DNA of 64,000 nt from Acidilobaceae archaeon (GTDB taxonomy: Archaea; Thermoproteota; Thermoprotei_A; Sulfolobales; Acidilobaceae): positions 704,001 through 768,000 of the forward strand of contig JAWAWX010000001.1 in the NCBI GenBank assembly GCA_038897215.1. Reading direction: 5' to 3'. Under the pieces are notes generated by a model. That model saw only the letters and a list, made by a program, of their open reading frames with translations. It ran no database searches and was not told where the DNA came from. Within the stretch, counting starts at the first letter, position 1. Every line of letters starts with the position of its first letter. Of the stretch, positions 15,310 through 40,447 are shown in pieces. Position numbers and translations under genes: made by a program.

Positions 15310-15409
15310 GGGGCCGTCGTCTAGCCTGGCTAGGATGCCAGCCTGGGGAGCGAATCCCTAGAGCCCGGAGCGCTGGTGGTCCCGGGTTCAAATCCCGGCG
15401 GCCCCACCA
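15310..15409 (+). tRNA. tRNA-Pro(GGG) with 22-nt intron (15349-15370) at position 37/38
   Basis: GGGGCCG/CGGCCCC acceptor, CCAGC/GCTGG anticodon stem; CTGG pairs with intron CCGG with two 3-nt bulges (BHB); ACCA end. Confidence 0.95.
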
Positions 15410-36118: not shown

Positions 36119-36228
36119 CCCGCCGTAGCTCAGCGGTAGAGCGCCCGGCTGTAGTGAGACGGGCGTGTAGAGCCCGGTGTCTCACAGACACCGGGTGGTC
36201 GGGGGTTCGAATCCCCCCGGCGGGACCA
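36119..36228 (+). tRNA. tRNA-Tyr(GTA) with 35-nt intron (36155-36189) at position 37/38
   Basis: CCCGCCG/CGGCGGG acceptor (C1-G72); CTGT/ACAG central helix with GAGAC/GTCTC outer helix (BHB); ACCA end. Confidence 0.96.
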
Positions 36229-40052: not shown

Positions 40053-40133
40053 TCCACCCCCAGCCCTCCGCGGCCGGTATCGCTCCCACAACGTTGAGAC
40101 CTATAATAGGTTTCGAGATATACCTAGACACAA

Positions 40134-40447
40134 GGCCGCGGCCAGCGGCCGACGGGCTCTAAGCCCGAGGACACACCGCTCTCACCGCGCTCCCGGACCC
40201 CGCAAGGGGTGCGGGTGATACCCGCGGCTACGGCACAGAAACGAGACGGCCTCCGGCTATGTCGATGAAGCCGCGAGACCCTCTCGGCAACGAGAGGGTA
40301 GTAACCGGTGGAGGAAGCCGGGGGATGCGTTGAAACGGCCGACCCCGGGTGAGCAAGGCGGGGGGCTGTGAGGAGCGCGCGAGCCCTCCGAGAGACCGCT
40401 GAGTCGAATGCCGCTGGAGGTACTGAAAGCGGGTTATGGCCGCGGCC
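40134..40447 (+). ncRNA. rnpB: RNase P RNA (archaeal) with atypical conserved-region bases
   Basis: P1 GGCCGCGGCCA/TGGCCGCGGCC, P2 GCGGC/GCCGC, P3 CGGGCT/AGCCCG, CR-I GAGGA.., ACAGAAA, TGAAACG, GAGCAAG, CR-V ACTGAA AGCGGGTTA; TATA at about 40102. Confidence 0.9.

What the first reader, a model, noticed from the sequence alone, without database searches (positions are those of the whole stretch)
40134..40447. RNase P RNA with a rewired catalytic centre: bulged U replaced by A, plus two more invariant positions changed
Seen: P4 is in perfect register (CCGCT 40176-80 with AGCGG 40428-32; C40174-G40433; A40173-T40434). However, the bulged base at 40175 is A, 40172 is C (a C-U mismatch) and 40424 is T (ACTGAA). 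Known: in E. coli numbering these are U69, A66 and A349 of GAGGAAAGUCC/ACAGAA. U69 is near-universally conserved and helps bind catalytic Mg2+. Inference: the fold is under selection while the chemistry has changed. This could be a catalytically weak or dead RNP kept for another job (with protein-only HARP doing tRNA processing), or a variant active site. Three clustered changes are unlikely to be random sequencing error.
Basis: partly seen in the sequence, partly recalled or inferred. Interest (0 to 1): 0.8.

Follow-up and report, generated by a model that had tools for sequence, protein, structure and literature searches.

The report
RNase P RNA with variant catalytic core
This is the genome's only RNase P RNA, the ribozyme that trims tRNA precursors; it carries three inherited substitutions at near-invariant active-site positions and looks like a working natural variant, not a dead enzyme or a sequencing error.

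Summary
Window 40134-40447 (+) is a full-length archaeal RNase P RNA (RF00373, 154 bits) and the only copy in a 1.16 Mb one-contig genome. P4 pairs exactly as described, with C40172 (E. coli A66), bulged A40175 (U69) and U40424 (A349).

The "dead RNP backed up by HARP" reading is not supported:
- Pop5, Rpp30, Rpp29, Rpp21 and L7Ae are all present.
- HARP was not found here or in any of seven species with the same three letters.
- The RNA departs from the ≥88% consensus of 243 Thermoproteota RNase P RNAs at only two columns.

The A bulge alone is ordinary. It occurs in 64 of 154 RNAs of the order, apparently including cultivated species, and this scan had already noted it on other DNA (e1-5451170).

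Specific to this window is the triple state, which marks a clade of seven uncultured hot-spring Acidilobaceae-like species. C66 with U349 also arose independently in another family.

Changes at 349 cluster in A-bulge lineages (9 of 10 within the order, crude P≈0.002) and go mostly to U. This hints at coupling between the bulge base and the J2/4 junction. Activity is inferred, not measured.

The parts
40134..40447 (+). RNase P RNA gene (rnpB), archaeal type; P1 formed by 40134-40143 with 40438-40447
   Evidence: RF00373 154.1 bits, model positions 1-288 of 288. Only match in the genome.
40102..40109 (+). TATA-like box TATAATAG, 25-32 nt upstream of the RNA's first base; likely promoter
   Evidence: Read from the sequence. 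The spacing fits the archaeal promoter rule, which is my knowledge; it was not tested.
40172..40180 (+). P4 5' strand (CR-I): C40172 = E. coli A66, A40173 = A67, C40174 = G68, bulged A40175 = U69, CCGCU = 70-74
40175..40175 (+). Bulged nucleotide of P4, A instead of the 'universal' U
   Evidence: A in 64 of 154 RNAs of the order and in 0 of 89 outside it.
40172..40172 (+). C instead of A66; opposite U40435 (C.U mismatch at the end of P4)
   Evidence: A in 233 of 243 RNAs. C occurs only in this clade and in family f18.
40422..40427 (+). J2/4 (CR-V) ACUGAA; U40424 = E. coli A349; A40426 and A40427 = active-site A351/A352, unchanged
   Evidence: The Mja equivalents A233/A234 lie at the catalytic centre (PMC6565675).
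40428..40435 (+). P4 3' strand AGCGGGUU (E. coli 353-360)
40402..40412 (+). CR-IV / J18/2 AGUCGAAUGCC, canonical here; the G (E. coli G332) varies among clade members

Best explanation
This is the single, functional catalytic RNA of a five-protein archaeal RNase P and the cell's only known enzyme for removing tRNA 5' leaders.

Its active site is a lineage-fixed natural variant. The bulged P4 base is A rather than U, A66 is C, and J2/4 position 349 is U.

The likely mechanism is unchanged two-metal phosphodiester hydrolysis. The metals are held mainly by backbone phosphates of residues 67/68 and 351/352, all of which are retained. The bulge base mainly shapes the helix, so losing the uridine O4 ligand costs little in a protein-rich, hyperthermophilic RNP.

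The order of changes was probably U69 to A first, in an ancestor shared with the sister genera, then A349 to U and A66 to C in the ancestor of this clade. The later changes look coupled to the first rather than random.

Shown: identity, single copy, conservation, protein partners, absence of HARP, and phyletic pattern. Inferred: activity, metal geometry, and coupling.
For: - Identity and copy number.
- Only two departures from the >=88% consensus of 243 RNAs.
- P4 pairs 67-74/353-359 are at least 98.8% paired with several pair types. Clade members show CCGCU/AGCGG, CCGCC/GGCGG and CCACC/GGUGG.
- The triple state is shared by 7 species-level genomes. The four in my tree form one clade (100/95 support), sister to an all-A-bulge clade.
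- Pop5, Rpp30, Rpp29, Rpp21 and L7Ae are present as open frames.
- No HARP in any of the 7 genomes.
- The A bulge is in 64 of 154 RNAs of the order. These include genomes whose contig sizes equal those published for Acidilobus saccharovorans and Sulfurisphaera tokodaii (sizes from my memory).
- E. coli U69A lowers kc only 5-10 fold and leaves binding intact: PMC11221534.
- An RNA-library contig covers 40213-40401 at depth 55, against 3 for the next gene.
- Of 10 gains of non-A349 inside the order, 9 fall in A-bulge lineages, which make up 40% of tree length (binomial P 0.0018). Seven of those 9 go to U.
- C66 arose twice, and 349 is U in all 13 genomes that carry it.
Against: - No activity was measured for this or any A-bulge RNase P.
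- In M. jannaschii holoenzyme, U42A 'greatly diminished' activity (PMC6565675), so tolerance of A is not universal among archaeal enzymes.
- The coupling statistics are crude. The tree comes from the RNA itself, events are few, and the independent-pairs test was not significant.
- 48 A-bulge RNAs keep A349, and 7 U-bulge RNAs have U349 (G199 and family f18), so no strict pairing rule holds.
- Genome completeness is estimated at 89.7%, so the absence of another enzyme is not proven. PRORP-type enzymes were not searched for.
- The RNA contig does not cover the three variant letters, and DNA carry-over cannot be excluded.
Confidence: 0.75

Rival explanations
1. Neutral tolerance without coupling. 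In multi-protein archaeal RNase P the identities of the bulge base, residue 66 and residue 349 matter little. The three letters travel together only because they were fixed by drift in one ancestor.
For: - 48 A-bulge RNAs keep A349, and G199 has a U bulge with U349.
- The independent-pairs test is not significant.
- The clade consists of small-genome uncultured organisms (1.1-1.7 Mb) in which drift may be strong.
Against: - A66 is A in 233 of 243 RNAs, and the only two origins of C66 both carry U349.
- Gains of non-A349 are concentrated in A-bulge lineages, and 7 of 9 go to U and none to G, although A to G is normally the commoner change.
- Outside the order the bulge is never A among 89 RNAs, so the position is constrained in general.
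Confidence: 0.3
2. One reading: a catalytically weak or dead RNP kept for another job, with tRNA 5' processing done by protein-only HARP.
For: M. jannaschii U42A strongly reduces activity (PMC6565675). HARP genes do exist in this family.
Against: - No HARP in G000, in the six other triple-variant genomes, or in the second C66 clade.
- HARP is found in 16 of 25 U-bulge relatives but only 2 of 13 A-bulge relatives.
- All five protein subunits are kept.
- The substrate-binding and core nucleotides are all canonical.
Confidence: 0.04
3. The genomic A at the bulge is changed after transcription, for example deaminated to inosine. Inosine's O6 carbonyl could replace the uridine O4 as a metal ligand, so the mature RNA would be chemically near-canonical.
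For: None direct. The idea rests only on chemistry and on the persistence of A in many lineages.
Against: - No enzyme known to edit such a site in archaeal RNase P RNA (my knowledge).
- The available RNA contig does not cover 40175, and the two raw-read RNA runs gave no reads.
Confidence: 0.03
4. Sequencing or assembly error, or a decaying pseudogene.
For: The genome is a metagenome-derived assembly.
Against: - Identical letters in contigs at about 93x depth.
- The same three letters in six other species-level assemblies from different projects.
- Compensatory changes keep P4 paired, and only two columns depart from consensus.
Confidence: 0.01

Closest known systems
Archaeal RNase P RNA, Rfam RF00373 (for example the Methanocaldococcus jannaschii RPR in the cryo-EM holoenzyme, PMC6565675)
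   Same: Full-length match, the P4 pseudoknot with one bulged nucleotide at the same place, the active-site AA of J2/4, and the same five protein partners encoded in the genome.
   Different: The bulge is A rather than U (Mja U42), A66 is C giving a C.U mismatch at the end of P4, and 349 is U. In Mja the engineered U42A greatly reduced activity, whereas here A is the natural, fixed state.
A-bulge RNase P RNAs of the same order (sister genera g3/g11, families f5 and f11, two Sulfolobaceae genomes); noted earlier in this scan as e1-5451170
   Same: Same A at the bulge, same architecture, same C68-G358 pair.
   Different: Those keep A66, and 48 of 64 keep A349. Only this clade combines A bulge, C66 and U349.
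Family f18 RNase P RNAs (another order of the same class): GAGGACGCUCC ... ACUCAAGG
   Same: C66 opposite U360 and U349, arisen independently. No HARP found either.
   Different: They keep the canonical U bulge and also have C at 350, as human H1 RNA does (PMC13022451).
Engineered bulge mutants of bacterial RNase P (E. coli U69A, T. maritima U52C)
   Same: The same position is changed. They show the uridine is 'critical but not essential': 5-10 fold (PMC11221534) and about 13 fold (PMC3488217) loss.
   Different: Those are single laboratory mutations in a one-protein bacterial enzyme. Here the change is natural, ancient and accompanied by two further changes nearby.
HARP (Aquifex-type protein-only RNase P, Pfam PIN_5)
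   Same: It does the same job and occurs in relatives of this organism.
   Different: Not encoded in this genome or clade, and unrelated in structure.

Membership tests
Archaeal RNase P RNA (RF00373) | Covariance-model score above the curated gathering score over the whole model | tested here: met
   154.1 bits against 84, model positions 1-288 of 288.
Archaeal RNase P RNA (RF00373) | P4 pseudoknot between CR-I and CR-V with a single bulged nucleotide after the third pair | tested here: met
   Seven Watson-Crick pairs plus one bulge at 40175. The same columns are at least 98.8% paired across 243 RNAs.
Archaeal RNase P RNA (RF00373) | Identity of the 'universally conserved' core bases (bulged U69, A66) | tested here: not met
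   A40175 and C40172. The bulge identity also fails in 64 of 154 RNAs of the order, so it is not truly defining.
Archaeal RNase P RNA (RF00373) | All other highly conserved columns (CR-II/III T-loops, CR-IV, active-site AA of J2/4) | tested here: met
   No other departure from columns conserved at >=88%.
Archaeal RNase P holoenzyme | Genes for Pop5, Rpp30, Rpp29, Rpp21 and L7Ae in the same genome | tested here: met
   60.9, 49.5, 54.2, 57.3 and 117 bits, all above the Pfam cut-offs, with no stops.
Archaeal RNase P holoenzyme | Cleaves pre-tRNA at the mature 5' end | not testable with these tools
   Needs in vitro reconstitution.
HARP-dependent organisms (protein-only RNase P) | A PIN_5 (PF08745) gene above cut-off | tested here: not met
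   Best hit 11.3 bits, E 0.1. None in the clade.
Type T (Thermoproteaceae) minimal RNase P RNA | Loss of most of the specificity domain; RNA of about 200 nt | tested here: not met
   314 nt with a full-length match including the S domain.

The most novel reading that the evidence does not exclude
The P4 bulge base and J2/4 position 349 (with residue 66) form a functionally coupled unit of the RNase P active site. The canonical U69/A349 and this clade's A69/U349 would be two complementary solutions, with A69/A349 as the tolerated intermediate. The uridine carbonyl that helps hold the catalytic metal, or a pairing that parks the bulge base before substrate binding, could then be supplied from either strand.

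On this reading the window's RNA is a naturally 'swapped' active site with an added C66 change next to the second metal site.
Probability: 0.2. Interest if true: 0.75.

Novelty: new variant of a known kind. Interest (0 to 1): 0.45.

Why it matters
RNase P papers up to 2024 still call the bulged P4 uridine 'universally conserved' and assign its O4 to the catalytic metal (PMC3488217, PMC6565675, PMC11221534). In this archaeal order about 40% of sampled species have A there. One clade has also changed two neighbouring near-invariant bases, yet it has no back-up enzyme.

This gives a ready-made natural test of how much the base ligand contributes to catalysis compared with the backbone ligands. 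The pattern of follow-up changes at 349 and 66 also points to specific residues to examine in the solved structures and in mutant cycles.

It does not change what RNase P is or does.

Tried and rejected
- **A simple rule that failed.** My first rule, 'non-A at 349 occurs only with an A bulge', was broken by wider sampling: G199 and family f18. I replaced it with an enrichment statement.
- **Phylogenetic test.** The independent-pairs test of bulge against 349 was not significant (median p 0.25-0.5).
- **RNA reads.** Two raw-read metatranscriptomes (X7, X8) gave no reads on the stretch with about 3% of each run read, so they are no test.
- **Literature.** Searches for a paper describing a natural A bulge, a 66/349 contact or the CR-I consensus string found nothing relevant. 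Subscription papers are not covered.
- **Pattern scan.** One pattern could not cover both C66 clades because the gap varies by more than 30 bases, so only the own-clade form was scanned.
- **HARP and the bulge.** HARP and an A bulge look anticorrelated (2 of 13 against 16 of 25). Within family f1 this is driven by one or two events and it vanishes in the other families, so I make no claim from it.
- **Not attempted.** Covariation of Pop5 or Rpp30 residues with bulge identity, and a search for PRORP-type enzymes.

Full report
**What is there**

Window 40134-40447 (+) matches the Rfam archaeal RNase P model end to end (154.1 bits, gathering score 84). It is the only such match in the 1,159,524-base, one-contig genome. 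A TATA-like box (TATAATAG, 40102-40109) lies 25-32 nt upstream.

- The 5' strand is GAGGA-C40172-A-C-A40175-CCGCU.
- The 3' side is AC-U40424-GAA-AGCGGGUU.
- P4 forms seven Watson-Crick pairs, with A40175 bulged and C40172 opposite U40435.
- By the numbering of PMC9433436 (A67, G68, U69), these are E. coli A66, U69 and A349.

**Is it real?**

Metagenome contigs at about 93x depth are identical over the whole 601 bases laid, although that sample may be the source of the assembly. Independent support comes from other assemblies. A same-genus genome (G001), two genomes of a second genus (G007, G020) and three further species-level MAGs found by a pattern scan of 185,579 species genomes carry the same three letters. 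All are uncultured and are labelled Acidilobaceae, Desulfurococcaceae, Sulfolobales or Thermoprotei archaeon.

An RNA-library contig covers 40213-40401 at depth 55, against 3 for the downstream gene. This hints at expression, but the contig does not reach the variant letters.

**How unusual is each change?**

I extracted and aligned 243 RNase P RNAs from the phylum: 154 from the own order and 89 from other orders and classes.

- The bulge is A in 64 of the 154 order members and in none of the 89 outside.
- Whole families (f5, f11) and the sister genera g3 and g11 have A.
- So do genomes whose contig lengths equal the published sizes of Acidilobus saccharovorans and Sulfurisphaera tokodaii. That identification rests on my memory of those sizes.
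- So the bulged A is a common natural state in this order. An earlier follow-up of this scan reached the same conclusion on another genome (e1-5451170).
- C at position 66 is rare: 10 of 243, in this clade and in family f18 of another order.
- U, C or G at 349 occurs in 24 of 243.
- Against columns conserved at 88% or more, this RNA departs only at 40172 and 40424.

**Is the RNA under selection?**

P4 pairs 67-74/353-359 are 98.8-100% paired across the set and show several pair types. Within the clade, the pair sets CCGCU/AGCGG, CCGCC/GGCGG and CCACC/GGUGG replace one another.

The 66-360 position behaves differently. It is A-U in 233 RNAs, C.U in 10, and never another Watson-Crick pair. Identity, not just pairing, is therefore constrained there.

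**Is it a dead enzyme with a backup?**

No. Pop5, Rpp30, Rpp29, Rpp21 and L7Ae are all encoded as open frames above the Pfam cut-offs. PIN_5/HARP was not found in this genome (best hit 11 bits), in the six other triple-variant genomes, or in five genomes of family f18 (four with C66).

HARP is present in 18 of 41 relatives. These are mostly U-bulge genomes: 16 of 25, against 2 of 13 with an A bulge. That is the reverse of what a backup role would predict, although the pattern rests on very few evolutionary events.

TATA-like boxes upstream of the window's tRNA genes sit where short leaders of roughly 5-9 nt would be transcribed. This is inference from promoter spacing only, but it suggests 5' processing is still needed.

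**History**

In a tree built without the three columns, G000, G001, G007 and G020 form a clade (100/95 support). It is sister (90/79) to the all-A-bulge, A66, A349 genera g3 and g11. The simplest order of events is U to A at the bulge first, then A66 to C and A349 to U in the ancestor of this clade.

**Signs of coupling**

- Parsimony on the 238-row tree gives 17 changes of the bulge base, 12 gains of non-A at 349 and 2 gains of C66.
- Nine of the 12 gains at 349 lie in A-bulge lineages, which hold 24% of the tree length (binomial P 3e-4).
- Inside the order alone the figure is 9 of 10 gains against 40% of the length (P 0.0018).
- Seven of those nine go to U, two to C and none to G. My own calculation gives P of about 0.008 if the three alternatives were equally likely.
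- Both origins of C66 carry U349, in 13 of 13 genomes.

These numbers are crude. The tree comes from the same RNA, events are few, and the independent-pairs test is not significant. Exceptions also exist: 48 A-bulge RNAs keep A349, and G199 and family f18 combine a U bulge with U349. I read this as epistasis within one neighbourhood of the active site, not as a strict base pair.

The literature gives a plausible setting:
- The bulge O4 and the phosphates of residues 67/68 hold metal A.
- A second metal binds in the adjacent J3/4, next to residue 66 (PMC9433436).
- The two As after position 350 line the catalytic centre (PMC6565675).
- G350C in E. coli causes a defect in Mg2+ recruitment to P4 (cited in PMC13022451).

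**Mechanism**

The most likely reading (about 0.75) is an active enzyme with ordinary two-metal chemistry. The backbone ligands are retained and the bulge base mainly keeps the distorted helix.

In favour, E. coli U69A loses only 5-10 fold in kc with normal binding (PMC11221534), and T. maritima U52C loses about 13 fold (PMC3488217). Against it, M. jannaschii U42A 'greatly diminished' activity (PMC6565675), so the tolerant background of this order is itself unexplained.

No activity was measured here. I found no paper that remarks on a natural A bulge in the searchable library.

**Verdict**

The bulged A is already known to this scan and is widespread. The triple state and the recurrent C66/U349 pairing are a new variant of a known kind. 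Their value is mainly as a natural experiment on the RNase P catalytic core.

Noticed in passing
L240-L242 (genomes G299, G347, G292; family f38): Three complete genomes of another class have weak RNase P RNA matches (86-98 bits). Their P4 strands AACCCCCUC / GAGGGGGU can pair as eight continuous pairs with no bulge at all, or with a C bulge. An earlier first-reader note (e1-5222290) describes a bulge-less P4 on other DNA.
   Followed up: partly
L223 (genome G289, family f37): This RNase P RNA aligns with a gap at the bulge column (GAGGAAGC-CCACC), so it may also lack the bulged nucleotide.
   Followed up: no
relatives G004-G037: HARP (PIN_5) genes scoring 200-265 bits sit alongside a full RNase P RNA in 18 of 41 relatives. 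These include genomes whose sizes match Aeropyrum, Hyperthermus and Ignicoccus. In family f1, HARP is found in the U-bulge genera and not in the A-bulge genera.
   Followed up: partly
L121:1300-1812 (+) = G000:C1:496188-496700: The Pop5 frame is 170 aa from a TTG start. It has a 21-residue hydrophobic stretch (YLVLALVSLIGGAVGGALVAI) and basic residues before the RKRRY core of the domain. No ATG, GTG or TTG lies between that stretch and the core. An earlier first-reader note (e1-5605994) suggests a membrane anchor.
   Followed up: partly
window 40405 and the same column in G001, G007, G020 and family f18: The G of GUCGAAUGCC (E. coli G332, a CR-IV residue that touches the substrate leader) is G here, A in G001, and U in G007 and G020. 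It also varies in family f18, so a third active-site-adjacent position is loose in the C66 clades.
   Followed up: no
window 15310-15406 and 36119-36225: Two tRNA genes carry long insertions and are probably intron-containing (97 and 107 nt; Rfam 50 and 62 bits). ARAGORN missed the first and shifted the second by 10 nt.
   Followed up: no
L147, L148, L131, L138, L142, L136 (family f18): J2/4 reads ACUCAA, with C at the position of E. coli G350. That is the letter of human H1 RNA, and in E. coli G350C causes a Mg2+ recruitment defect (PMC13022451).
   Followed up: no
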